Source: a virus
Taxonomy: Duplodnaviria; Heunggongvirae; Uroviricota; Caudoviricetes
Direction: 5' to 3' (one strand)
Length of the DNA: 41,556 nucleotides
Virus record (IMG/VR): IMGVR_UViG_2802429245_000005
Position numbers and translations under genes: made by a program. This document shows, piece after piece, positions 3,685 through 36,550 of the stretch. Position 1 is the first letter of the stretch. Every line of letters starts with the position of its first letter. The notes under the pieces were generated by a model. It did no database searches. It saw only the letters and a list, made by a program, of their open reading frames with translations, and was not told the origin of the DNA.

Positions 3685-6426
3685 TTACACAGCACAAATC
3701 CTGATCGTTGCTGTGATATCAGTTTCAGTGCCATTATTGAGATATAACCTACCGCCTACAATTGACATCCCAATTTTGGTAGAAACTTCTTCATCTGCAG
3801 ATGTCACCACCACGTTTGTTTTATTGTAATTACCAAGCGGAGATTCATCAGTCGAATGCCCTGGCCTCAATATCATTCCTACACCTGCAAAGAAATTAGG
3901 GTTCCCATTATTTATAACATCCACACAATAAGATAATGCGCTTTTACTAAGTGGGATGGATTGACTTGTATGTGCCTTAACCCACATTTCCCATACGTAT
4001 TCACTTTTACGTATCGCCCCCTCACATGAACCAGATGCATGGAATAACTTTCCTGATGATACAGTGTTATTGGTGCCAACAAGAATCATCTGATTTCCAC
4101 CACCAAAGCCAAAGTTATCACCAAGAGATGGTCCACCATTAATCCTTAACATATATGCATCAGTACTGCCTGATGAGGCGTCAGAGTTATCTATATATAC
4201 AGTGCAATCACTTATAAGAACGCCATCAATCTTATCTGGCGCAACAGTATTAGTTTGGACAACGACGAACTCTCTGGTGGTAGATTTTGCCGAACAACCT
4301 TTAATAATTGTTGGTGTTTCAAGAGTATATGTTTGAGTAATAAAAATGAAATTACTAGGACGAAGCTTCCGATTAACAGCATTTGTTGCTTTCCACCATT
4401 TATTGCTTGATTCGGTTGTTTCGCTAAAGCCATCAATATAGTGAGTATCGGTAATAGTAATTCCGCTACCATAATACAAACGAATCGGAAGGTTGCTAAA
4501 TCCTCTAATCTCGCAACCAGATACTATCTCATTAAAACCACGTATAGTTGCGCCATAAAAACAGTCAACTGCCACATTGTCTTTATATTTAGACTCTGCG
4601 GCACCACCATGACTACCAAACCCATAGGAAAATTCAGTCCATCCTTCCGATGGAAATATAATCCCACCAGTATAACCAGTTCCGCCACCACGCATTGTAA
4701 TGTTGGTTACATTATTGTAGAGAGAACTCCAGTTACTCCCTCCAATATCAACACCACGCCTACAACAAGATGCATTGATATTGTCCACAGTGCAGTAACT
4801 GCTATTGGAAACAGAAACAGCATTACCTGTACCACCATCACCATTGAAAACTCTATTGATTCCATACAGAGATGTATCACGAACAGTGCATCTTAAGCAG
4901 CCTAACAAGGTAATCCCAGCATTCGGGAAATTTTCCACACTAGCGAAACTGGCAATACCGTTTACGCAATATTCGAAGACAACCCCATCATAAGCTTTTT
5001 GTCCGCTAGTTGCATTGGTAACTAACCCGTGTATCGTCCCAACATGAAAATCTCCAGAAATATTAAATGTAGCAGGATAGACAGCCCAGGCCTCAGCTTG
5101 CCTAACCAAACGAAATGTATCTCCTGCAGCAGGTTTATTTGGGAATCCAGTGTCAGCATTACTACCAATAGTAAATGTTTTTGTGTCATCATCATATGCT
5201 GTAACCATTTTGGTTATACCAGCATTATCTCCCGTTAATCCAAGAATTTTATAGAGTGCATCACGAGGTGGTGATGTCACTGAGAAATTTGTAGATGTAA
5301 ATGATTGCCCACTAGATGCGCCAGTAACTGTAACTGTAATATTCCCTCCTGAACGGTAGTAATAATATGCATCCTGATCTAATGTCACATTATTTCCACT
5401 AAGTGAAACGACTTCAACAATTTGCCCTTCCTGCCAACTTCCTCGGTTATCTCCACGAACAAGGTGGTTATTACGAATAACAAGCAAATCTCCGACAGAA
5501 ATATCAGACACATCATCAAGAGTCACAGTCTTTTCGCCCAATGATATATCTCTCGTTATGAAATTATGCAATTTAGTACTTGCAATTCCACCAAGCTTTA
5601 TTGCTGAACCTTCATATCCTACAACATTATTTGTGCAGAGCAATTCAACCTTTCCTGATGCCACCCAATCGAAGCAACCATATGGAATGGAAATATCTAT
5701 TTGTGAAAACAGGTACTTTCCTGCTGTCCATTCCAAACGCTTTCCGTTAGATGCGCAGTAAATGATGGCATTTGTTATTGCGTCTGTATCGTCAGTAATG
5801 CCATCCCCTTTTGCACCAAAATCGCGAACATTGACGATATCCCGCATCTTATCCTGGAACGTTCTGTATACTGCTCCAGAACCATACTGAATAAACAAAC
5901 CAAAACCACCAACAACTCCGGCGATTGCAGCATCGACATAATTACGCATTGAGCGATTATTTACAGCATCCTGCTCAAGTGATGGATCTGCAAGGTTAGA
6001 AATTCTGTTTTGTTTTGCATCGTAATATTTTGCAAGCAGAGAGGGCTTCATCAATGCACGTCTGAACCACCCAAAACATTGCTGGATCAGCATCGTCAGA
6101 TAGTCAAAGGCATCCTCATGCACTTCGGGGAAAAATTTTCCCTGATTGCGAAGGTCTGTCTCCTGCACTACATCAAGCACACGATCTATCGTAATTCGCC
6201 ATCCAGCAGCAAGCGGAGACGGAAGAACCACAGAACCGCCACTATAAGTGCCCGCCCCAGTTACCGTATAACCGGTATCCAGAACCAATTCTGTTACGTT
6301 CCCGTTCAGGTCAGACACCTGAACAACCAGGTCTGATTTTCTGAAAATTCGAAAAGTATACGGAAACGATGTCGTAACGCCGTTACCTGTGTATTCGTTG
6401 TGGTCAACTTCGGTTGAGACCGTCAT
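3685..6426 (-). CDS. Tailspike with N-terminal virion-attachment domain and pectate-lyase-like beta-helix receptor-binding/depolymerase domain
   Basis: 913 aa. RBS GGAG 9 nt upstream of ATG (6424-6426). VRDFGAKGDGITDDTDAI motif typical of right-handed beta-helix glycanases. Downstream two-thirds is AT-rich by eye. Confidence 0.85.
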   Translation of the reverse strand: MTVSTEVDHNEYTGNGVTTSFPYTFRIFRKSDLVVQVSDLNGNVTELVLDTGYTVTGAGTYSGGSVVLPSPLAAGWRITIDRVLDVVQETDLRNQGKFFPEVHEDAFDYLTMLIQQCFGWFRRALMKPSLLAKYYDAKQNRISNLADPSLEQDAVNNRSMRNYVDAAIAGVVGGFGLFIQYGSGAVYRTFQDKMRDIVNVRDFGAKGDGITDDTDAITNAIIYCASNGKRLEWTAGKYLFSQIDISIPYGCFDWVASGKVELLCTNNVVGYEGSAIKLGGIASTKLHNFITRDISLGEKTVTLDDVSDISVGDLLVIRNNHLVRGDNRGSWQEGQIVEVVSLSGNNVTLDQDAYYYYRSGGNITVTVTGASSGQSFTSTNFSVTSPPRDALYKILGLTGDNAGITKMVTAYDDDTKTFTIGSNADTGFPNKPAAGDTFRLVRQAEAWAVYPATFNISGDFHVGTIHGLVTNATSGQKAYDGVVFEYCVNGIASFASVENFPNAGITLLGCLRCTVRDTSLYGINRVFNGDGGTGNAVSVSNSSYCTVDNINASCCRRGVDIGGSNWSSLYNNVTNITMRGGGTGYTGGIIFPSEGWTEFSYGFGSHGGAAESKYKDNVAVDCFYGATIRGFNEIVSGCEIRGFSNLPIRLYYGSGITITDTHYIDGFSETTESSNKWWKATNAVNRKLRPSNFIFITQTYTLETPTIIKGCSAKSTTREFVVVQTNTVAPDKIDGVLISDCTVYIDNSDASSGSTDAYMLRINGGPSLGDNFGFGGGNQMILVGTNNTVSSGKLFHASGSCEGAIRKSEYVWEMWVKAHTSQSIPLSKSALSYCVDVINNGNPNFFAGVGMILRPGHSTDESPLGNYNKTNVVVTSADEEVSTKIGMSIVGGRLYLNNGTETDITATIRICAV

Positions 6427-6530
6427 GTTAAATCTCCAGATAGTCGCAGCACCCGTTGCGCCGCATATCTGGTTATTCTATTACCTGAAAAACCACATAT
6501 GGATAGAAAGACTGTAAATACGAATAGATA

Positions 6531-6545
6531 TTACCTTTCAGGTAA
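6531..6545. promoter_or_regulatory. Palindromic operator-like site TTACCTTTCAGGTAA
   Basis: Exact TTACC-N5-GGTAA between the divergent tailspike (start 6426) and gene 6622. Confidence 0.6.
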
Positions 6546-6621
6546 TTTGCAAAACGTGCTGGATAGCAAACAAATTATTTGCTACTGTATAAATATACAG
6601 TTATTGCATGGAGAAGATAAG

Positions 6622-6879
6622 ATGCAGCAGTATCACTATCCACTGGAAGACGGATTTACCGAAAGGATTCACACGCCGGGAGGCGTCAGATCACTGGTGG
6701 AGGGATCGCACTTGATGAAATTACTCCGGGATCTCGATAAGGATGGATTTAATGTCGATGGCCCACTTGCCGAACTGACTGCACTGATTAACTACGTCAC
6801 CAGCTCACAGATGTCTATGCAGGATCTGCAAACACATCTCGACTATTGTGCCGAACAATTACGAAAACAAACCCGGTAA
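6622..6879 (+). CDS. Small protein homologous to the C-terminal domain of the BRO-N antirepressor at 8028-8723
   Basis: ATG at 6622 with GGAGAAG upstream. Aligns with the antirepressor C-terminus (LMKLLRDLDKDGFNVDGPLAELT...DLQTHLDY versus LMNLLNQLQEDGHDVSGAAAELT...DIQTHAEY). Confidence 0.55.
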   Translation: MQQYHYPLEDGFTERIHTPGGVRSLVEGSHLMKLLRDLDKDGFNVDGPLAELTALINYVTSSQMSMQDLQTHLDYCAEQLRKQTR

Positions 6880-6886
6880 ATTTAAA

Positions 6887-6902
6887 GGCCGCAAGAGCGG
6901 CC
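6887..6902. terminator. Hairpin between convergent genes 6622-6879 and 6902-7630 (possible bidirectional terminator)
   Basis: GGCCGC-AAGA-GCGGCC with T-rich flanks on both strands. Confidence 0.4.
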
Positions 6903-7630
6903 TATCGTTTCGCTTTGTGCTCGTCCCAGCACGTTTTGCACCATGCCATTAAGCCGTCCGCATTTTGATTATTAGGGTAAAAGCTGGTTCGTTTTCTGCG
7001 GACATTACAAATTGGGCACCACTTCATATGACGTGTATTCTTTGGGCCATCGAGACACCTTGCACACCACTTAGTCAATCCATCTGGATTTTTTGACGAT
7101 TTCCTGAATTTTTCATATGGAAGGTTTATTCTGCATCGCAAGCACTGCTTGCTACCGCTTGAAACTCTGTTAGCTGATTCTTCTTTTGGCGGCGATACAG
7201 AAGATATTCTTGCTGGCTCTGATACTGCCTGAGGTGCTTTTTTAAATGACTGAGACGATATGTCATCACCAGGGAATCTTCCATGATATGCCGGACGCGT
7301 TGACACTCCAGGTGGAAGCTCAGCTGTAAACGGCTTTGGCTGAATCAGTTGCCTCTCTTTTGCTAACTCCTGCTGTTTATAATATGTCTGGATTACCGCA
7401 CTATCATAAGCAGGAGGTGCGGAAATATTAGGCGCATTACCTCCAGTTTTTTGAAACTGAGTAGAGGTGTGTTCTATCACCTGTGTACGATTAATCGTTA
7501 TCTCCCCATCTTCGGTCTTTATCGTTTTGTTATGATTAACGACCGTACGATCAGAGATCTTAGTCTTGTTCTGGTTGATAACGTAAATAATCACCGTAAC
7601 CACACCAACAACTATCCAGAAAACTTCCAT
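6902..7630 (-). CDS. Membrane-anchored protein with two tandem CxxC...WCxxC zinc-ribbon-like repeats
   Basis: RBS GAGGAAAAG before ATG (7628-7630). N-terminal TM helix, Pro/Ser-rich linker, repeats CLRCR...DGLTKWCARC and CPICN...DGLMAWCKTC. Operator motif at 7651-7665. Confidence 0.6.
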   Translation of the reverse strand: MEVFWIVVGVVTVIIYVINQNKTKISDRTVVNHNKTIKTEDGEITINRTQVIEHTSTQFQKTGGNAPNISAPPAYDSAVIQTYYKQQELAKERQLIQPKPFTAELPPGVSTRPAYHGRFPGDDISSQSFKKAPQAVSEPARISSVSPPKEESANRVSSGSKQCLRCRINLPYEKFRKSSKNPDGLTKWCARCLDGPKNTRHMKWCPICNVRRKRTSFYPNNQNADGLMAWCKTCWDEHKAKR

Positions 7631-7650
7631 TGCTTTTCCTCACAATAACA

Positions 7651-7665
7651 TTACCTTAAAGGTAA
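7651..7665. promoter_or_regulatory. Palindromic operator-like site TTACCTTAAAGGTAA
   Basis: Exact motif 21 nt upstream of the start of minus-strand gene 6902-7630. Confidence 0.6.
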
Positions 7666-7743
7666 TATCTTGCTTTCAGGTGATCAAGCATTAAACGCAA
7701 CCAACCAAATACGGTTGATTTTAATATTTATTCGCGTTTATCA

Positions 7744-7758
7744 TTACCTTTGCGGTAA
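7744..7758. promoter_or_regulatory. Palindromic operator-like site TTACCTTTGCGGTAA
   Basis: Exact motif at the head of the structured leader upstream of the antirepressor gene. Confidence 0.6.
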
Positions 7759-7792
7759 ATTTACATCGCACTCCTCTTGTGCCATAGTAATC

Positions 7793-7816
7793 GGGCACTG
7801 GCAAAATCCAGTGCCG
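7793..7816 (+). other. Perfect 8-bp stem-loop (GGCACTGG / CCAGTGCC) in the antirepressor leader
   Basis: Read directly; lies between the operator at 7744 and the terminator at 7851. Confidence 0.5.
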
Positions 7817-7850
7817 GGATTGGCGTCCCGGATTACTAAAAGGCGCATTC

Positions 7851-7870
7851 ACCGCGCAAGCGGTTTTTTT
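7851..7870 (+). terminator. Intrinsic terminator-like hairpin plus T7 tract in the antirepressor leader
   Basis: ACCGC-GCAA-GCGGT followed by TTTTTTT. Confidence 0.5.
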
Positions 7871-8027
7871 ATGCGTATAGCACGGCCACATTCGTATTAT
7901 GGTGGGCTGTGTGGGGGCACCGAAAGGTGCGCCGGGTCCTTTTAGCCGGTTACGCCAACCCTGCACAGTTCACCACCAACCGATTGGCGTCGGTAGTGGT
8001 GATTAACCAGACTAAAAGGTAACCACT

Positions 8028-8723
8028 ATGACAGCTACAAAAAGCACGTCCATTTTTTCTTTCGAATCCCAAGCCGATATACGGGTAATCGTCATTAATG
8101 GTGAGCCATGGTTTATCGCTTCAGATGTTTGTCGGGCTATAGGCATAGCAAACCATCGAGATGCTGTTCGAAAACTTGATGATGATGAGAAGGGCGTCGC
8201 TTCAACCGACACCCCTGGCGGTGAGCAAGAATCGATCATTATCTCCGAGTCAGGCCTCTACACACTGATCCTCCGCTGCCGCGATGCGGTGACACCAGGC
8301 ACTATCCCCTACCGCTTTCGTAAATGGGTTACAGGTGAGGTTCTTCCTCAGATCCGCCGCACCGGAAGTTACATTAAAAACTCGCTCCCGCAGGAAGAAC
8401 GCATAAAGATGGTTGCCGACCAGGTTGCCAACGCCACGGCGTCAGCAGTAATGCAGGCGATGAAGATAGAGAACAAAACCTACAGCGCCCCGCTGAAGCC
8501 AGGATACCGCAGTCTGATTCACTCGCCGTCTGGTGTTCTCGGCCTGACGGAGAACTCACTGCTGATGAATCTGCTGAACCAGTTACAGGAAGACGGGCAT
8601 GATGTATCGGGCGCGGCGGCGGAGCTGACCACCATGTTCTGCTACATCGTCGGTGTGAGTAAATGCCTGCGTGATATCCAGACGCATGCGGAGTACATCA
8701 ACGACAAGGCTGGGTTCTTCTGA
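8028..8723 (+). CDS. Antirepressor, BRO-N (Ant-type) N-terminal domain plus C-terminal domain
   Basis: N-terminus FSFESQADIRVIVINGEPWFIASDVCRAIGIANHRDAVRKLDDDEKG matches the Bro-N fold signature. RBS AAGG before ATG at 8028. Confidence 0.8.
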   Translation: MTATKSTSIFSFESQADIRVIVINGEPWFIASDVCRAIGIANHRDAVRKLDDDEKGVASTDTPGGEQESIIISESGLYTLILRCRDAVTPGTIPYRFRKWVTGEVLPQIRRTGSYIKNSLPQEERIKMVADQVANATASAVMQAMKIENKTYSAPLKPGYRSLIHSPSGVLGLTENSLLMNLLNQLQEDGHDVSGAAAELTTMFCYIVGVSKCLRDIQTHAEYINDKAGFF

Positions 8724-8789
8724 CGGGCGGCGGCACAGGGATGTGCCTTTAAAATAATCATTGGCGATGTGATGTAGATTCGCGTAATA

Positions 8790-8804
8790 TTACCTTAAAG
8801 GTAA
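8790..8804. promoter_or_regulatory. Palindromic operator-like site TTACCTTAAAGGTAA
   Basis: Exact motif immediately after a -10-like TAATAT (8785-8790) and 27 nt before ATG 8831. Confidence 0.6.
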
Positions 8805-8830
8805 ACCATGTGTTTACATGAGGAGGAGAT

Positions 8831-26395: not shown

Positions 26396-26485
26396 ATCAA
26401 TGACTCCGTACGCAATTAAATTATTACCAATTTAACCACATATGATTTATTTATCGTAGATAGTTGACATTTAACGCACGAATTA

Positions 26486-26500
26486 TTACCTTTCAGGTAA
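26486..26500. promoter_or_regulatory. Palindromic operator-like site TTACCTTTCAGGTAA
   Basis: Exact motif next to TTGACA (26464-26469), upstream of the tRNA region. Confidence 0.6.
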
Positions 26501-26822
26501 CCAAAGAGTTCATTCCGGTTACTAACCTGACTGGCTTGTCGTTAAATTGAACAGGTGGAGTGAGCTTTTATTTTGAGCAGTACGGCGTATGGCACATGCG
26601 CCGATAGCGGTCTGGATACGTTTAAGGGGCACCCTCCCTTGCTCGGGCAAACGAACCAGGTAGCCGGAATGTGCAAGTCGAGCGGTTTTATTCCGCGCAC
26701 GGGGATTCACCATCCCGGCGATTCGGTGTGACACCTCGGAAGAGACGAGGGTACAACGATGAGGGCATTTATGGAGCCGCGACAAAGTGTGGTGCCTTAA
26801 CAGGCTAAGTGCTCTCAGCGTT

Positions 26823-26899
26823 GTGGCATTAGCTCAGCTGGACAGAGCAACCGCCTTCTAAGCGGTTGGTCGCAGGTTCGAATCCTGCATGCCACGCCA
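26823..26899 (+). tRNA. tRNA-Arg, anticodon UCU (reads AGA), phage-encoded
   Basis: Cloverleaf read directly: acceptor GTGGCAT/ATGCCAC, D-arm GCTC-AGCTGGACA-GAGC, anticodon stem ACCGC/GCGGT with loop CTTCTAA, T-arm GCAGG-TTCGAAT-CCTGC, discriminator G and encoded CCA. Confidence 0.85.
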
Positions 26900-27087: not shown

Positions 27088-27102
27088 CCTGGTGACTGAA
27101 CG

Positions 27103-27117
27103 TTACCTTGAAGGTAA
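27103..27117. promoter_or_regulatory. Palindromic operator-like site TTACCTTGAAGGTAA
   Basis: Exact motif 33 nt upstream of ATG 27150, downstream of the tRNA terminators. Confidence 0.6.
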
Positions 27118-27149
27118 GATAACAAAAACATTTAACATCTGGTTTAGAC

Positions 27150-29229: not shown

Positions 29230-29822
29230 TGATTACCATCCTGACGTTCTTTGAGTCGCTTCCTGGCTGCTGCTATGCGATCAGCAATTGTCACATTCAC
29301 ATTAACATCCAGACGTTCTTTGAACGCGTTGACATCAACATGCTTACCAATCAGCTCAAGGTTCTTCACCTTGTCAGGCCATTTAATTTTTTTGAGGATT
29401 GTCTCTATCGAATCCTCGTTCATGTTCATGATGGTCGATGACAGATCAAAGCCACTAAGCGTAGTACGCCAGATTTTCGGCCACTCACGGATTGGTTTAA
29501 GGCTCCCATCGTCGTTGAGGATGTCGATCACGTCCATCTGGTCGATCTCCACCAGGCGCATGAGAACGTAATCAGCACTGACGCGCATTCGTTTGTTGCG
29601 CTCCTCCATCAACTCGGCAATCCGTTTCTGAATGCGTTCATCGCGCATCATGACACTGGCTTTAACTGCCGCTGTATTTGGGGAGAATCCTGCGTTAATC
29701 GCAGCCTGAGTCTGGTTTTCAGGCGTTTTGATGTATGACTGGCAATAAGCCTCCTGCATTGCTGTGAGCGGCTTAAATTGCGTTGATTTGCGTTTATAGG
29801 TTTTAGGTTCAGCAGGCATCAT
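29226..29822 (-). CDS. Terminase small subunit
   Basis: ATG ATG at 29817-29822 with GGTGG upstream. 4-nt stop/start overlap with the large subunit. Confidence 0.65.
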   Translation of the reverse strand: MMPAEPKTYKRKSTQFKPLTAMQEAYCQSYIKTPENQTQAAINAGFSPNTAAVKASVMMRDERIQKRIAELMEERNKRMRVSADYVLMRLVEIDQMDVIDILNDDGSLKPIREWPKIWRTTLSGFDLSSTIMNMNEDSIETILKKIKWPDKVKNLELIGKHVDVNAFKERLDVNVNVTIADRIAAARKRLKERQDGNQ

Positions 29823-29839
29823 AACCACCGTGGTAATTG

Positions 29840-29854
29840 TTACCGTTGTGGTAA
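29840..29854. promoter_or_regulatory. Palindromic operator-like site TTACCGTTGTGGTAA at the late-operon start
   Basis: Exact motif between the minus-strand terminator (29866-29891) and the terminase small subunit start (29822). Nested GGTAA/TTACC half-sites around it (29832-29861). Confidence 0.55.
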
Positions 29855-29865
29855 TAGTACCATGC

Positions 29866-33390: not shown

Positions 33391-33393
33391 GAT

Positions 33394-33408
33394 TTACCCC
33401 TGAGGTAA
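33394..33408. promoter_or_regulatory. Palindromic operator-like site TTACCCCTGAGGTAA
   Basis: Exact motif directly upstream of the start of gene 33046-33390. Confidence 0.55.
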
Positions 33409-33455
33409 TTAAAAACCACATAAGACACGAAATCAATAGAGTTTAGAATATTTTG

Positions 33456-33470
33456 TTACCAAACAGGTAA
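33456..33470. promoter_or_regulatory. Palindromic operator-like site TTACCAAACAGGTAA
   Basis: Exact motif between the P-like gene end and gene 33046-33390; 62 bp from the previous site. Confidence 0.55.
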
Positions 33471-33507
33471 TTATCAAGACGTAAAAAAATGCGCTATCGC
33501 GCTGGTA

Positions 33508-34284
33508 TTACTTGATAAATCCTGCCGCCTTTCCCCGCCTGTATTCCTCCATCAGCCACTGCGCCGGTGTTATTCCCCCAAGGGTGGCGGCGTTAGGCAT
33601 GCACCCGAAACTTCGCCCTGGTGGATGGTAAACGTCTCTCCCTGTGTCCGGAGGTGTACTCATGGGCTCTGGCTTTGCCTGTATGCTGATCACCGGATCG
33701 GGTATCTGCTGTCCGGAAGCCACCTTTTTCGCCCAATCATCGAGCAGCCTGCGCGCGTGTTTCTCAACCTCAATCTCGCTAAGCTGGCGCTGATACATTG
33801 CACGGCGGGTATCACATACGACCCAGTACATAACCGGATGCCGCCACGGGAATCTTTCGGGACCACCAGGATATAAACTTTTTTCCTTGCTGTACCGGTG
33901 AAACTCCGCCATCACATCGTCAATGGTGACGCCAAGAACCATCTTGCTGTCTTTACACCACTTGATAAATTGCCCTGGCGACGGCCAGAACGGAGATTCA
34001 CTGGCGCGGGCGTGGCGCATACCAGCGTTAACCTGTTCCATTGTAGTGATCCCATTCTCCAGAAACGCAAGCATCCATTGCTTACGGAATTCATTAAGTT
34101 TGTTCTGCTCCCTTATGGTCGAAACGCTTGCAGGAAATGCAGCCTGTAACTGGACAAATAGTTCATTGAAAATTCTAGCGACCTGCTCCTTTTTGCCATT
34201 GCTGTCACGCCGCTCTTCATGCACAGCAACACCATGCTCACGTAAGCGATCGTACTCATTGAGAAGTTCTGGAGTTGATTTCAT
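33508..34284 (-). CDS. P: Replication protein P-like helicase loader
   Basis: Strong resemblance to lambda P over IFNELFVQLQAAFPAS...RKQWMLAFLENGITTMEQVNAGMRHARASESPFWPSPGQFIKWCKD. RBS AAGGGG before ATG. Confidence 0.8.
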   Translation of the reverse strand: MKSTPELLNEYDRLREHGVAVHEERRDSNGKKEQVARIFNELFVQLQAAFPASVSTIREQNKLNEFRKQWMLAFLENGITTMEQVNAGMRHARASESPFWPSPGQFIKWCKDSKMVLGVTIDDVMAEFHRYSKEKSLYPGGPERFPWRHPVMYWVVCDTRRAMYQRQLSEIEVEKHARRLLDDWAKKVASGQQIPDPVISIQAKPEPMSTPPDTGRDVYHPPGRSFGCMPNAATLGGITPAQWLMEEYRRGKAAGFIK

Positions 34285-35086
34285 CCCACACCCCTTCTAT
34301 CCAGTCAGTGTTATTCCAGTCAAGCTCATCGCTTTTCCCGACGTTTTTTGATTTTCCCCTGATATGATTTACGTGCCTGGCGAATTTTTGTTCCCACTGA
34401 ACCTGCGTGAACACTTTGCCCTCAGCCATCCAGTAATCCCGGAATGCAGCAAGTTCAGCAGGTGTAAATTCCGGTTCCGGCAGGGCCGTTCCCCACAGCG
34501 CAGCACGCCGTCGAAAATCCGGCGACGGATGCCAGCCATCGGTCATCGGAAATTTCCCAATAGGTTCACTCAGGCCATCCAGAAATGCAGGTTCTGCCAC
34601 CTGCAACGGCGTACCGTTCGCTTCACTGGTCGGATCACTCTCGCGCGCGTGTGCTATGTGTGGGGTTTTATATATATCTTCCTCTTCCTCTTCCTCTGGT
34701 AACTCTTTTTGTAACGCTGTTGGCGTTACTTTTTGCGTTACTCGTTTTCGATGCTCTGCCACTCTTCTATTCGTAAGTGCACGTTTTTTCGATGATTCTC
34801 CATTGTGTCGCTCAAAGTTTGGAAGAATTAGTTTGCCGTCATGATAAGCAAGCCATCCGACGCTAATGAGGGCGTCAGCAAATCCTGTAATAAAAGCGAG
34901 TCTATCAAGTACTCCTTTTGTAACGCTGCCAGCGTTACCGTCTATTGTTTGCTGGTCAGCCCATGCCCATATACGAACCAGCTTTCCAAGAACAGCATCT
35001 GGATCAATACCCAGAATTTCTGCTATCTGAAAAATTTCAGGTTTATCAGGAGTGATAACTTCAACCTTAATCCAGCTGCTTGCCAT
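34256..35086 (-). CDS. Replication initiation/organiser protein with DnaT-like C-terminal domain (O-equivalent)
   Basis: C-terminus GKFPMTDGWHPSPDFRRRAALWGTALPEPEFTPAELAAFRDYWMAEGKVFTQVQWEQKFARH matches the DnaT C-terminal domain. GAGGGG before ATG at 35084-35086. Confidence 0.7.
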   Translation of the reverse strand: MASSWIKVEVITPDKPEIFQIAEILGIDPDAVLGKLVRIWAWADQQTIDGNAGSVTKGVLDRLAFITGFADALISVGWLAYHDGKLILPNFERHNGESSKKRALTNRRVAEHRKRVTQKVTPTALQKELPEEEEEEDIYKTPHIAHARESDPTSEANGTPLQVAEPAFLDGLSEPIGKFPMTDGWHPSPDFRRRAALWGTALPEPEFTPAELAAFRDYWMAEGKVFTQVQWEQKFARHVNHIRGKSKNVGKSDELDWNNTDWIEGVWDEINSRTSQ

Positions 35087-35279: not shown

Positions 35280-35357
35280 TTTTTCCGCCCCTTTTTGTTA
35301 TTGATATTGGCTATTTTGCACAATTGGAAAATTTGATCAACCAGATTTGGTTTTTTA

Positions 35358-35372
35358 TTACCTTTGAGGTAC
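35358..35372. promoter_or_regulatory. Operator-like site TTACCTTTGAGGTAC (one mismatch)
   Basis: Between the terminator after the cro-like gene and the 70-aa zinc-binding-like gene. Confidence 0.4.
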
Positions 35373-35380
35373 GAATAGAT

Positions 35381-35740: not shown

Positions 35741-35742
35741 AT

Positions 35743-35757
35743 TTACCTGTTGGGTAA
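35743..35757. promoter_or_regulatory. Palindromic operator-like site TTACCTGTTGGGTAA in immunity region
   Basis: Exact motif; third site, nearest the repressor-like gene. Confidence 0.6.
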
Positions 35758-35812
35758 TATTGCTTTAAATTGAATCATCTACTGATTCATATATGAGGCG
35801 ATTTTCCAGAAA

Positions 35813-36397
35813 ATGAAAAGTATCCAGGACGTCCGCAGGCAAAATCTCAACGACTTGATCGACCGTGAATTCAATGGTGTTCAGACGCGGATGGCAGAAA
35901 AACTTGGAACTCAGGCAAATCTGGTAAACCGCTGGGCTCTTGGCAAGAAGGTTATCGGCGACCAGGTTGCGCGAAAAATTGAAGCTGCCGCCAATAAACC
36001 CCGTAACTGGCTTGATATCGATCGCTCGCTTTCTCAGGAAGGTTTTCAGCCTGTCGGCCCAAGCGACATTGGTCAGCTGGCGGCTCACAACCTGGAACGC
36101 TGGATGAGCGAAAGCCGCGACCTTTCAACACAGGGAAAACTTCACCGCGCATCCGGCGTCGCCCAGGTAACAATCAGCCGCCTGTTAAACAATGAGGTCA
36201 GCGTTTCCATTTCCACCCTGGAGAATGTTGCATCCGCATTCGGGCGTCACGGCTATGAATTACTGATTCACCCGCACGACCCTGCGACCATCAACTATGA
36301 CCGCTCGCGCTACGCATTGTTACCCGAAACCGAGAAAGCAAAGATCGAAAGTTACATTGAATTTGTCATCAACCAGAACGAAAAAAATAAACAATAA
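35813..36397 (+). CDS. Repressor-like protein with two XRE-type HTH domains (candidate lysogeny repressor)
   Basis: 194 aa with two HTH-like segments and no S24 peptidase domain. Monocistronic: strong terminator at 36418-36444. Operator motifs cluster between it and the cro-like gene. Confidence 0.7.
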   Translation: MKSIQDVRRQNLNDLIDREFNGVQTRMAEKLGTQANLVNRWALGKKVIGDQVARKIEAAANKPRNWLDIDRSLSQEGFQPVGPSDIGQLAAHNLERWMSESRDLSTQGKLHRASGVAQVTISRLLNNEVSVSISTLENVASAFGRHGYELLIHPHDPATINYDRSRYALLPETEKAKIESYIEFVINQNEKNKQ

Positions 36398-36444: not shown

Positions 36445-36454
36445 GCCATCAAGA

Positions 36455-36469
36455 TTACCTTATGGGTAA
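36455..36469. promoter_or_regulatory. Palindromic operator-like site TTACCTTATGGGTAA
   Basis: Exact motif about 20 bp upstream of TTGACA (36489-36494), ahead of the recombination operon. Confidence 0.6.
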
Positions 36470-36488
36470 TTTTTTTAGCTCATATCTA

Positions 36489-36516
36489 TTGACATCAAAC
36501 CAAATACGCATAATCA
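36489..36516 (+). promoter_or_regulatory. Sigma70-like promoter candidate for the recombination operon
   Basis: TTGACA at 36489-36494 and -10-like CATAAT (36509-36514) or TAATCA (36511-36516). Spacer length is non-optimal, so assignment is tentative. Confidence 0.4.
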
Positions 36517-36531
36517 TTACCCCAACGGTAA
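36517..36531. promoter_or_regulatory. Palindromic operator-like site TTACCCCAACGGTAA
   Basis: Exact motif immediately downstream of -10-like CATAAT/TAATCA (36509-36516); paired with the site at 36455. Confidence 0.6.
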
Positions 36532-36550
36532 CAGACCGAGGTAACAAATT

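What the first reader, a model, noticed from the sequence alone, without database searches (positions are those of the whole stretch)
7744..8027. Structured leader (operator, hairpin, terminator) upstream of the antirepressor gene: candidate small RNA or attenuator
Between the operator at 7744-7758 and the antirepressor ATG at 8028 there is no convincing ORF. Instead there is a perfect 8-bp stem-loop (7793-7816), a GC stem with T7 tract (7851-7870), and a further GAAA-loop hairpin before the RBS. A roughly 100-nt terminated transcript from an operator-controlled promoter could be a regulatory sRNA, or the leader could make antirepressor expression depend on antitermination, analogous in logic to antisense or attenuation control of ant in P22-like phages.
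Basis: partly seen in the sequence, partly recalled or inferred. Interest (0 to 1): 0.65.

Follow-up and report, generated by a model that had tools for sequence, protein, structure and literature searches.

The report
P1-type C4 antisense control of antirepressor
The "structured leader" in front of this E. coli prophage's antirepressor gene is an unannotated copy of a known phage RNA switch: an IsrK-type short leader RNA followed by a C4 antisense RNA whose loops are complementary to the antirepressor's ribosome-binding site. It is ordinary in kind.

Summary
All three hairpins, the T7 terminator and the palindromic operator are present, within one base of the stated coordinates. No ORF in the interval is conserved.

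The interval is not a new attenuator. It matches two curated Rfam families full-length: isrK (7795-7870, 77.9 bits) and C4 antisense RNA (7895-7980, 77.7 bits). This is the phage P1/P7 immI layout: operator, promoter, leader with decoy sites a1/b1 and a weak terminator, C4 RNA, then target sites a2/b2, then ant.

C4 loop b' (CCUUUUAG) and tail a' (ACGCCAA) are exactly complementary to b1/a1 upstream and to b2/a2 downstream. b2 (8012-8019) is the Shine-Dalgarno sequence of ant (ATG 8028).

Across P1, Gifsy-1, Stx, Klebsiella, Hafnia and APSE phages and 79 IMG/VR loci, a' and b' co-vary with both target pairs. I saw 5 a-types and at least 8 b-types.

It differs from P1 in having no icd ORF and a Bro-N antirepressor. 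It differs from Gifsy-1 IsrK in having no conserved coupling ORF.

Verdict: new member of a known kind, low interest.

The parts
7650..7666 (.). Upstream operator copy, perfect palindrome ATTACCTTAAAGGTAAT. It lies between the divergent gene 6902-7630 (-) and the ant leader.
   Evidence: 0 mismatches to ATTACC-N5-GGTAAT. The family is strongly over-represented in the window.
7743..7759 (.). Operator ATTACCTTTGCGGTAAA, ending 1 nt before the -35 hexamer of the leader promoter.
   Evidence: The half-sites are conserved while the 5-bp spacer varies or is inverted in relatives (phiV10, Tyrion). The position matches P1 Oc4/Op51, which overlaps the -35 of P2c4.
7760..7788 (+). Predicted sigma-70 promoter: -35 TTTACA (7760-7765), 17-nt spacer, extended -10 TGcCATAGT (-10 hexamer 7783-7788). 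Predicted transcription start about 7795.
   Evidence: The spacing from -10 to the first base of the isrK model equals that of the Gifsy-1 PisrK sequence. The region is nearly invariant in 65 related leaders. No transcript data; the start site is inferred.
7795..7870 (+). IsrK-family leader RNA, equivalent to the P1 a1/b1 leader. It has hairpin 1 (7794-7815), hairpin 2 (7815-7830), a single-stranded b1 stretch and an intrinsic terminator.
   Evidence: Rfam RF01394, 77.9 bits (gathering 50), model 1-77/77. c4-a1b1 RF03163 scores 45.1 bits at 7782-7834, just below its gathering score of 46.7. The MFE fold matches the family structure. Six of 7 hairpin-1 pairs show compensatory changes.
7819..7826 (+). 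a1 decoy site AUUGGCGU, in the loop of hairpin 2.
   Evidence: UUGGCGU is perfectly complementary to C4 a' ACGCCAA. It co-varies with a' across loci.
7836..7843 (+). b1 decoy site CUAAAAGG.
   Evidence: Perfectly complementary to C4 b' CCUUUUAG. It co-varies with b'.
7851..7870 (+). Weak Rho-independent terminator: 5-bp stem, GCAA loop, U7.
   Evidence: -8.1 kcal/mol. A hairpin plus U5-U8 is kept in all 14 loci with different stem sequences.
7895..7980 (+). C4 antisense RNA gene (Rfam hit). The mature RNA is predicted as 7901-7977 (77 nt) by alignment to the annotated P1 c4.
   Evidence: RF01695, 77.7 bits (gathering 45), model 1-87/87. The fold is -45.1 kcal/mol, z -4.54. Nine of 24 pairs show compensatory changes.
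7938..7945 (+). b' recognition sequence CCUUUUAG, in the loop of C4 hairpin 2 (stem 7931-7935 / 7946-7950).
7952..7958 (+). a' recognition sequence ACGCCAA, in the single-stranded junction of C4.
7971..8003 (+). Alternative hairpin. The 3' strand of the C4 closing stem (CACCACC) pairs with downstream GGUGGUG and presents a2 in the apical loop. It cannot form at the same time as the C4 closing stem.
   Evidence: -17.8 kcal/mol. It is predicted in all 14 loci, with compensating changes in P1 (CCUGC/GCAGG) and G-U pairs in APSE. Function unknown.
7983..7990 (+). a2 target site AUUGGCGU, starting 3 nt after the C4 hit.
   Evidence: Its position corresponds to P1 a2.
8012..8019 (+). b2 target site CUAAAAGG, which is the Shine-Dalgarno of ant (8 nt between GG and the ATG).
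   Evidence: Its position corresponds to P1 b2, which precedes icd.
8028..8723 (+). ant: 231-aa antirepressor with a Bro-N domain.
   Evidence: Pfam Bro-N, E 2.3e-21. It is 100% identical to vB_EcoP_ZX5 ORF4, whose overexpression lowers lysogeny (PMC9782041).
35813..36397 (+). Prophage repressor (HTH_3), the candidate binder of the ATTACC-N5-GGTAAT operators.
   Evidence: Pfam HTH_3. It is 100% identical to the ZX5 ORF21 repressor and the phiV10 putative repressor. Operators flank the gene at 35742-35758, 36454-36470 and 36516-36532. Binding is inferred, not shown.

Best explanation
The interval is the regulatory leader of a P1/P7-type immI antirepressor module carried by an epsilon15-like (Uetakevirus) E. 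coli prophage.

Proposed mechanism:
- A sigma-70 promoter (7760-7788) is abutted by an operator of the prophage repressor. It starts transcription near 7795.
- The first 76 nt form the IsrK-family leader: two hairpins, the sites a1 and b1, and a weak intrinsic terminator.
- Some transcripts stop there and give a short sRNA. The rest read through into the C4 gene (mature RNA about 7901-7977).
- C4 then pairs through loop b' and tail a' with b2 (the ant Shine-Dalgarno) and a2 on ant mRNA. This blocks ribosome binding, so little antirepressor is made.
- a1/b1 are exact copies of a2/b2. In cis or on the short RNA they compete for C4 and so tune or relieve the repression.

Shown here: family membership, anatomy, complementarity, and three-way covariation.

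Taken from P1/P7 work (Citron & Schuster 1990, Biere et al. 1992 and Hartmann et al. 1995, recalled from my own knowledge; the P1 site annotation is): C4 is processed out of the leader transcript (its 5' end by RNase P) and acts by translational repression.

Inferred: repressor control of the promoter, and the decoy or activator role of the short RNA. The latter rests on IsrK trans-activation in Gifsy-1 (PMC4825925).
For: - Full-length Rfam hits above gathering score for isrK and C4, adjacent and on the same strand.
- The P1 leader itself hits c4-a1b1 at 51 bits and isrK at 35 bits (E 9.5e-6), so the two families are the two halves of the P1 layout.
- b' and a' are perfectly complementary to b1/a1 and b2/a2, in the antiparallel order used by P1. 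The composite motif occurs 3 times against 0 expected.
- b2 is the ant Shine-Dalgarno.
- Covariation holds in 14 loci and 65 distinct leaders: 5 a-types and at least 8 b-types change together in C4 and in both target pairs. Cognate pairs give 7 nt (a) and 7-9 nt (b) of perfect complement, apart from G-U-interrupted cases. Non-cognate pairs reach this only when they share a type.
- Stems co-vary. The terminator is conserved in structure but not in sequence.
- Ant and the repressor are 100% identical to the ZX5 proteins tested by overexpression.
- The operator family is enriched about 30-fold, and this copy sits as Op51 does in P1.
Against: - There are no transcript, processing or reporter data for this phage. 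The transcription start, the mature C4 ends and termination efficiency are all predictions.
- The MFE of the unprocessed leader pairs a1/b1 with b'/a' in cis and leaves the ant Shine-Dalgarno open. Repression therefore needs processed or excess C4.
- RNAcofold shows no net gain for C4 with its target. It cannot model loop-loop contacts.
- Two P1 features are absent: the icd ORF, and hence Rho polarity, and a P1-type Ant.
- The operator centre lies about 44 bp upstream of the predicted start. That position could also serve activation rather than repression.
Confidence: 0.8

Rival explanations
1. Gifsy-1 IsrK-type positive control as the main mechanism. The readthrough transcript would be translationally silent. 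The short leader RNA would act in trans to open the start of a small ORF overlapping C4 (the orf45 equivalent, 7899-8006), whose translation is coupled to ant.
For: - The isrK family hit is full-length.
- The AUG at 7899 corresponds to the first AUG of orf45 in Gifsy-1.
- The MFE of the long transcript pairs the leader with the C4 segment, like 'structure A' of PMC4825925.
Against: - The ORF ends at 8006, 21 nt before the ant ATG. In Gifsy-1 the orf45 stop overlaps the anrP start (AUGA).
- In close relatives the frame is only 3 to 28 aa long, so coupling is not conserved.
- ant has its own Shine-Dalgarno inside b2.
- The Gifsy-1 locus itself contains a full C4 with a2/b2 at the anrP ribosome-binding site. 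IsrK activation there can therefore be read as titration of C4.
Confidence: 0.1
2. Simple transcriptional attenuation or antitermination. The T7 terminator would block ant transcription until a phage antiterminator or another signal allows readthrough, and the hairpins would have no antisense role.
For: - A real intrinsic terminator lies between the promoter and ant.
- It is conserved in all relatives examined.
Against: - The terminator is uniformly weak, a 5-7 bp stem at -8 to -12 kcal/mol.
- In Gifsy-1 part of the transcripts read through it (PMC4825925).
- Attenuation alone does not explain the three-way covariation of a'/b' with a1/b1 and a2/b2.
- No antiterminator recognition site was identified.
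Confidence: 0.05
3. The interval encodes a small protein. GenBank annotates an 'Ash family protein' on the homologous DNA of vB_EcoP_ZX5 (equivalent to window 7909-8022) and of Hafnia phage yong2.
For: - ZX5 carries a CDS annotation on this DNA.
- Pfam Phage_ASH hits residues 68-161 of the yong2 ORF at E 1.2e-12.
Against: - The window ORFs hit nothing in Pfam or NCBIfam.
- The reading frames are broken by the 1-nt length differences between b' types and are not conserved.
- The Pfam-matching residues in yong2 are encoded by exactly the isrK, C4 and a2/b2 DNA.
- Conservation follows RNA pairing, not codons.
Confidence: 0.02

Closest known systems
Phage P1/P7 immI operon (Op51 - P51a/b - a1 b1 - c4 - a2 b2 - icd - ant1/2)
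   Same: - The order of parts on one strand is the same.
- A repressor operator lies at the -35.
- The leader has hairpin 1, a1 in the loop of hairpin 2, then b1.
- A terminator-like hairpin follows.
- The C4 RNA is 77 nt with b' in a hairpin loop and a' in the 3' junction.
- a2 lies directly after C4 and b2 at the ribosome-binding site of the next gene.
- Specificity is set by a/b sequences that co-vary, which is the basis of P1/P7 heteroimmunity.

   Different: - There is no icd ORF. b2 covers the Shine-Dalgarno of the antirepressor itself, so Rho polarity through icd is not needed.
- The antirepressor is a Bro-N protein unrelated to P1 Ant1 (BLASTP E 0.11).
- The operator is a 17-bp palindrome for an HTH_3 repressor, not the asymmetric C1 operator.
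- The host element is a 40-kb integrated podovirus, not a plasmid prophage.
- The a and b sequences differ from those of P1.
Salmonella Gifsy-1 IsrK - orf45 - anrP locus (Hershko-Shalev et al. 2016, PMC4825925)
   Same: - The leader is a full-length IsrK family member with the same promoter-to-start spacing and the same a1 (UUGGCGU).
- A weak terminator is partly read through.
- A processed RNA of about 80 nt (STnc1160) comes from the position where Rfam finds C4.
- The downstream gene is an antirepressor-like protein.
   Different: - In Gifsy-1 a 45-codon ORF over C4 ends on the anrP start and is needed for anrP translation. Here the ORF is 35 aa, ends 21 nt upstream and is not conserved.
- The b sequence differs (AUCACCG against CUAAAAGG).
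- Gifsy-1 places the module after the Q antiterminator gene. Here it lies between the tailspike region and accessory genes.
APSE phages of Hamiltonella (Rouil et al. 2020, bioRxiv 10.1101/2020.03.17.996009; record LR794146)
   Same: isrK and C4 lie directly upstream of a Bro-N gene with no icd. a'/b' were reported to match the region upstream of that gene.
   Different: - The a and b types differ (AUUCGCAU, CUAAACAGG).
- The operator and promoter differ.
- That paper did not link isrK to a1/b1.
P22 immI (Mnt, Arc, sar RNA - ant)
   Same: - Antirepressor synthesis is held down by a small RNA that pairs at the ant ribosome-binding site.
- The module lies next to the tailspike gene in a podovirus prophage.
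   Different: - sar is transcribed from the opposite strand within the ant leader.
- No Rfam sar hit appears at E up to 10.
- Control here is by a same-strand RNA of the C4 type.
P4 CI RNA with seqA/seqC, and N15 CA RNA
   Same: A leader-derived, processed RNA pairs with repeated sites upstream and downstream of itself. The IsrK paper calls IsrK a structural homologue of P4 seqA.
   Different: Those RNAs cause premature transcription termination rather than occluding a Shine-Dalgarno. Membership was not tested here.

Membership tests
C4 antisense RNA (Rfam RF01695) / P1-P7 immI | Covariance-model score at or above the gathering threshold over the full model | tested here: met
   77.7 bits against 45, model 1-87/87, E 1.1e-13.
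C4 antisense RNA (Rfam RF01695) / P1-P7 immI | Long closing stem enclosing two hairpins, supported by covariation | tested here: met
   The MFE fold matches the family structure, -45.1 kcal/mol, z -4.54. Nine of 24 pairs show compensatory changes among 13 sequences.
C4 antisense RNA (Rfam RF01695) / P1-P7 immI | a' and b' complementary to a1/b1 upstream and a2/b2 downstream on the same transcript | tested here: met
   Perfect complements of 7 nt (a) and 8 nt (b) at both places. Three-way covariation is seen in 14 loci and 65 leaders.
C4 antisense RNA (Rfam RF01695) / P1-P7 immI | b2 lies at the ribosome-binding site of the first downstream gene | tested here: met
   b2 at 8012-8019 contains AAAAGG, 8 nt before ATG 8028. 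P1 b2 occupies the same position before icd.
C4 antisense RNA (Rfam RF01695) / P1-P7 immI | An icd ORF between C4 and ant, whose translation permits ant transcription | tested here: not met
   ant starts 48 nt after the C4 hit and there is no intervening ORF. The same holds in Stx, Klebsiella, APSE and Gifsy-1 loci.
C4 antisense RNA (Rfam RF01695) / P1-P7 immI | Antirepressor homologous to P1 Ant1/Ant2 | tested here: not met
   BLASTP E 0.11. The protein has a Bro-N domain instead.
C4 antisense RNA (Rfam RF01695) / P1-P7 immI | Leader promoter controlled by the primary phage repressor through an operator at the -35 | tested here: inconclusive
   The operator-family palindrome ends 1 nt before the -35, as P1 Oc4 does. 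Binding and repression were not tested.
C4 antisense RNA (Rfam RF01695) / P1-P7 immI | C4 excised from the precursor (5' end by RNase P) and acting in trans | not testable with these tools
   Only homology to the P1 c4 ends and a tRNA-like closing stem followed by CCA (7976-7978) are available.
IsrK sRNA (Rfam RF01394) | Covariance-model score at or above the gathering threshold over the full model | tested here: met
   77.9 bits against 50, model 1-77/77.
IsrK sRNA (Rfam RF01394) | Primary transcript that starts at its own promoter and ends at a Rho-independent terminator | tested here: inconclusive
   A promoter-like site is correctly spaced and the terminator is present. There are no transcript data.
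IsrK sRNA (Rfam RF01394) | Downstream orf45-type ORF translationally coupled to the antirepressor gene | tested here: not met
   The ORF 7899-8006 stops 21 nt before the ant ATG and is truncated to 3-28 aa in relatives.
IsrK sRNA (Rfam RF01394) | Hfq binding and trans-activation of the long transcript | not testable with these tools
   Shown only for Gifsy-1 (PMC4825925).
P22 immI sar antisense RNA | Small RNA transcribed from the strand opposite the ant leader | tested here: not met
   No sar family hit at E up to 10 on either strand of 7400-8300. All matched RNAs are on the ant strand.

The most novel reading that the evidence does not exclude
IsrK and C4 are treated as separate sRNAs in the papers I could read. 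They may instead be two halves of one three-part RNA circuit found in many enterobacterial prophages.

- The terminated leader would be a dedicated sponge (anti-antisense) for C4. The readthrough ratio at a deliberately weak terminator, together with a conserved alternative hairpin that competes with the C4 closing stem, would set the balance of C4 to decoy and hence the antirepressor level.
- On this reading Gifsy-1 'orf45'/STnc1160 is C4, and IsrK activates by titrating it.
- The independently reassorting a and b sequences would form a two-word specificity code. This would yield orthogonal immunity classes and allow two non-cross-reacting ant cassettes in one phage (for example contig L020).
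Probability: 0.35. Interest if true: 0.5.

Novelty: new member of a known kind. Interest (0 to 1): 0.25.

Why it matters
**Annotation.** This explains an unannotated 280-bp gap in a common E. coli prophage family. The leader has megablast matches in 941 of 5426 complete RefSeq genomes, where only the Bro-N CDS is listed under the match. It also explains ORFs called on this DNA as 'Ash family protein'.

**Biology.**
- These epsilon15-like phages would regulate their tested antirepressor (ZX5 ORF4) with a P1-style antisense RNA.
- The same module appears in the nin region of many Stx-converting phages. There, antirepressor control could bear on prophage induction and toxin release.
- The a/b types predict which prophages are immune to each other's antirepressor control.

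None of this is a new principle. It extends a mechanism described for P1/P7 in 1990.

Tried and rejected
- **RNAduplex and RNAcofold of C4 with its targets.** duplexfold ignores intramolecular structure and gave only marginal separation from shuffles. cofold cannot model loop-loop contacts and showed no gain. I relied instead on exact complementarity, its chance expectation and covariation.
- **MAFFT alignments.** They misaligned the terminator and the shorter C4 hairpin-1 variants, so RNAalifold missed those helices. I examined terminators per sequence instead.
- **Considered and rejected:**
  - a P22 sar-type opposite-strand RNA (no hit);
  - a conserved leader peptide or orf45 equivalent;
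  - a chance cluster of hairpins;
  - a second C4 cassette in this window (only one hit per family).
- **Deliberately not run.** The large protein homology searches, structure prediction and a custom covariance model. The RNA family assignment already answers the question.
Full report
**1. The observation**

- The palindromic operator ATTACCTTTGCGGTAAA lies at 7743-7759.
- A perfect 8-bp stem joins 7794-7801 to 7808-7815, with loop CAAAAU.
- A short GC stem with a GCAA loop is followed by seven T (7851-7870). The terminator scan also picks it up.
- The hairpin GCACC-GAAA-GGUGC lies at 7917-7930.
- ant has its ATG at 8028, preceded by AAAAGG.

The + strand ORFs in the interval are 91, 35 and 37 aa. 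They have no Pfam or NCBIfam match. The one that overlaps the hairpins is not conserved in close relatives, where it is 3 to 28 aa long.

The interval folds much better than shuffles. The z-score is -5.24 for 7790-8045, -4.54 for the C4 part and -2.43 for the leader.

**2. What it is**

A scan of the whole window against Rfam gives two adjacent, same-strand, full-length matches above the curated thresholds:
- isrK (RF01394) at 7795-7870, 77.9 bits, E 3.6e-15;
- C4 antisense RNA (RF01695) at 7895-7980, 77.7 bits, E 1.1e-13.

The family 'a1, b1 targets of C4' (RF03163) scores 45.1 bits at 7782-7834, just under its threshold of 46.7.

The annotated P1 record lists the following order: Oc4 (Op51), promoters P2c4 and P1c4, a1, b1, c4, a2, b2, icd, ant1/2. 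The P1 leader itself matches c4-a1b1 at 51 bits. It also matches isrK over the full model, terminator-like hairpin included, at 35 bits and E 9.5e-6. The isrK family is therefore the a1/b1 leader of the P1 layout, and the window carries that whole layout.

**3. Anatomy in P1 nomenclature**

Reading the P1 sequence shows two rules.
- a is the 5' target element and pairs with the 3' single-stranded a' of C4.
- b is the 3' target element next to the Shine-Dalgarno and pairs with the loop b' of the second C4 hairpin.

In the window the sites are as follows.

| Site | Sequence | Coordinates | Location |
|---|---|---|---|
| a1 | AUUGGCGU | 7819-7826 | loop of leader hairpin 2 |
| b1 | CUAAAAGG | 7836-7843 | single-stranded leader |
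| b' | CCUUUUAG | 7938-7945 | loop of C4 hairpin 2 |
| a' | ACGCCAA | 7952-7958 | C4 3' junction |
| a2 | AUUGGCGU | 7983-7990 | just after C4 |
| b2 | CUAAAAGG | 8012-8019 | Shine-Dalgarno of ant |

The pattern TTGGCGT-N(3-33)-CTAAAAGG occurs three times in 41.5 kb: the two target pairs on the + strand, and C4's own a'/b' read on the - strand. None is expected by chance.

By alignment to the 77-nt P1 c4, the mature RNA should be about 7901-7977.

A promoter-like site lies at 7760-7788: TTTACA, a 17-nt spacer, then an extended -10 TGcCATAGT. It places the start at about 7795, the first base of the isrK model. The spacing equals that of the Gifsy-1 isrK promoter sequence.

**4. Evidence from relatives**

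The window is an epsilon15-like (Uetakevirus) prophage. The leader is 98% identical to phage TL-2011b, 98.9% to vB_EcoP_ZX5 and 97.4% to phiV10. Those records annotate at most 'terminator' and an antirepressor CDS.

I collected 79 IMG/VR loci through the Ant protein, giving 65 distinct leaders. I added P1, Stx phage P27, two Klebsiella phages, Hafnia phage yong2, APSE-7 and Gifsy-1. All of these carry isrK and C4 hits, with the P1 isrK hit below threshold.

In every locus a' and b' are complementary to sites at the same positions upstream and downstream. The sequences change together.
- a-types and their a' partners: UUGGCGU/ACGCCAA, UUGGUCU/AGACCAA, UUUGCAC/GUGCAAA, UUCGCAU/AUGCGAA, UUGACAG/CUGUCAA.
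- b-types include CUAAAAGG, CUACAAAGG, CUAAGUGG, CUAAACAGG, GAAAAAGG, UCGCAAGAG, AUCACCG and GUUAGUG. Each has the exact complement in b', apart from some G-U pairs.
- a and b types occur in mixed combinations.
- In an all-against-all table, cognate pairs give 7 nt plus 7-9 nt of perfect complement. Non-cognate pairs reach this only when they share a type.

Other structural evidence agrees.
- Stems co-vary: 6 of 7 pairs in leader hairpin 1 and 9 of 24 pairs in C4.
- The terminator is kept as a weak hairpin plus U5-U8, with different stem sequences, in all 14 loci.

**5. The protein partners**

Ant (8028-8723) has a Bro-N domain. It is 100% identical to ZX5 ORF4. The 194-aa HTH_3 protein at 35813-36397 is 100% identical to the ZX5 ORF21 repressor.

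In ZX5, overexpressing the repressor abolished free phage. Overexpressing the antirepressor lowered the prophage titre about 1000-fold (PMC9782041).

The operator belongs to a dispersed family, ATTACC-N5-GGTAAT.
- Thirteen sites have at most 1 mismatch, and the pattern is about 30-fold enriched.
- Copies flank the repressor gene and bracket a strong promoter at 36480-36508.
- In relatives the half-sites are kept while the spacer varies.

That the repressor binds these sites, and that it represses rather than activates the leader promoter, is inference. The operator centre lies about 44 bp upstream of the predicted start.

**6. How it most likely works**

Steps resting on what was computed here:
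- RNA family identity;
- placement of the recognition and target sites;
- b2 being the ant Shine-Dalgarno;
- covariation.

Steps taken from P1/P7 work (Citron & Schuster 1990; Biere, Citron & Schuster 1992; Hartmann et al. 1995; cited from my own knowledge, with the site annotation):
- C4 is processed out of the leader transcript, its 5' end by RNase P.
- It pairs with a2/b2 and blocks translation initiation.

Because there is no icd here, the block falls directly on ant.

Inferred steps:
- The short terminated RNA, or the leader in cis, carries exact copies of the targets and competes for C4.
- In Gifsy-1, short IsrK supplied in trans raises anrP translation more than 100-fold (PMC4825925). 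That fits such a role.
- The MFE of the unprocessed window transcript pairs a1/b1 with b'/a' and leaves the ant Shine-Dalgarno open. New transcripts may therefore be briefly translatable until free C4 builds up.

I put 0.8 on C4-mediated repression of ant translation and about 0.5 on the decoy role.

**7. Differences from the closest systems**

*Against P1:*
- no icd;
- an unrelated antirepressor;
- a different operator and repressor.

*Against Gifsy-1:*
- The 45-codon ORF that overlaps C4 and ends on the anrP start has no conserved counterpart here.
- The Gifsy-1 locus contains a full C4 (69 bits), with a2 and b2 next to the anrP GGAGG.
- The IsrK paper does not mention C4 or P1. It does describe a processed species of about 80 nt, STnc1160, from that position.
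- A 2025 review lists IsrK and c4 separately.

*Against APSE phages:*
- APSE phages have the same icd-less arrangement in front of a Bro-N gene, and it has been published.

*Already annotated elsewhere:*
- Rfam-based annotation of EDL933 already lists C4 and isrK.

**8. Verdict**

The feature is real and functional-looking, but it belongs to a known kind. It is an unannotated member of the C4/IsrK antirepressor-control module, in the icd-less variant with a Bro-N antirepressor.

The attenuation and P22 analogies are not supported.

Interest is low (0.25). The most novel reading still open is that IsrK-type leaders are dedicated sponges for C4 within a single circuit that uses a combinatorial a/b specificity code.

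Noticed in passing
window 6530-6546, 7650-7666, 7743-7759, 8789-8805, 26485-26501, 29821-29837, 29839-29855, 33393-33409, 33455-33471, 35742-35758, 36454-36470, 36516-36532 (weaker: 27102-27118, 35357-35373): A dispersed 17-bp palindrome, ATTACC-N5-GGTAAT, occurs in front of many genes of the prophage. Copies bracket a consensus-like promoter at 36480-36508 and flank the repressor gene. It looks like a P1-style regulon of scattered operators for the 194-aa HTH repressor.
   Followed up: partly
window 6499-6879 (+): This ORF's C-terminal 74 residues are 42% identical (E 6e-19) to the C-terminal domain of Ant. An operator at 6530-6546 lies upstream of the likely real start (the methionine beginning MQQYHY). 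It may be a free-standing copy of the Ant C-terminal domain under the same repressor.
   Followed up: partly
L020 2268-3193 (+) and about 4970-5202 (-); similar second copies in L017, L018, L044, L048, L060, L068, L069, L073: Many related phages carry two convergent isrK-C4-ant cassettes about 2 kb apart, with different a and b types. In the L020 minus-strand copy the leader a1 (UUGGCGU) matches the other cassette's C4, while its own C4 and a2 are of the UUGGUCU type. This is either a recombinant or cross-talk between cassettes. The window has only one cassette.
   Followed up: partly
L040 and L048 leaders, position equivalent to window 7802-7807: The loop of leader hairpin 1 is reverse-complemented (CAAAAU becomes AUUUUG) while the stem is unchanged. 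This looks like an inversion between the stem arms. The loop is otherwise nearly invariant from P1 to APSE.
   Followed up: no
L087 1288-1971 (Hafnia phage yong2); L088 1672-1785, equivalent to window 7909-8022: Pfam PF10554 (Phage_ASH) matches residues 68-161 of the annotated yong2 'Ash family protein' at E 1.2e-12. Those residues are encoded by exactly the isrK, C4 and a2/b2 DNA. ZX5 also has an 'ash family protein' CDS lying on C4. At these loci the Ash calls appear to be translations of RNA genes, and the Pfam family may be built in part on such ORFs.
   Followed up: partly
window 7971-8003; equivalent positions in all 14 loci: A conserved alternative hairpin is predicted. The 3' strand of the C4 closing stem pairs with a downstream GGUGGUGA element (GCAGG in P1, which compensates) and puts a2 in the apical loop. 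It cannot coexist with the mature C4 fold. It may be a processing or switching element; its function is unexplained.
   Followed up: partly
L089 (Gifsy-1) 34076-34316, minus strand: The published 'orf45' region of the IsrK locus is a full C4 antisense RNA by Rfam (69 bits). a2 (UUGGCGU) and b2 (AUCACCG) lie next to the anrP Shine-Dalgarno. The IsrK paper does not mention C4.
   Followed up: yes
L084 1795-2701 (Stx phage P27); 279 phage records match, the largest groups named Stx1a-, Stx2a-, Stx2- or Stx2c-converting phages: The same isrK-C4-Ant module sits in the nin region of Stx-converting phages (NinE - isrK - C4 - Ant - Roi). Small 'putative protein' CDSs are annotated over the RNA genes.
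   Followed up: partly
window 6902-7630 (-): This is a 242-aa ORF with an N-terminal hydrophobic segment and a Cys-rich C-terminus (weak Stc1 zinc-finger hit, E 4e-4). It is divergent from the ant leader. The DNA is shared with TL-2011b, but phiV10 and ZX5 similarity begins only at about 7738-7754. It appears to be a lineage-specific insertion next to the module.
   Followed up: no
window 26823-26899: A tRNA-Arg (anticodon TCT) gene lies inside the prophage, with operator copies about 300 bp to either side (26485-26501 and 27102-27118).
   Followed up: no
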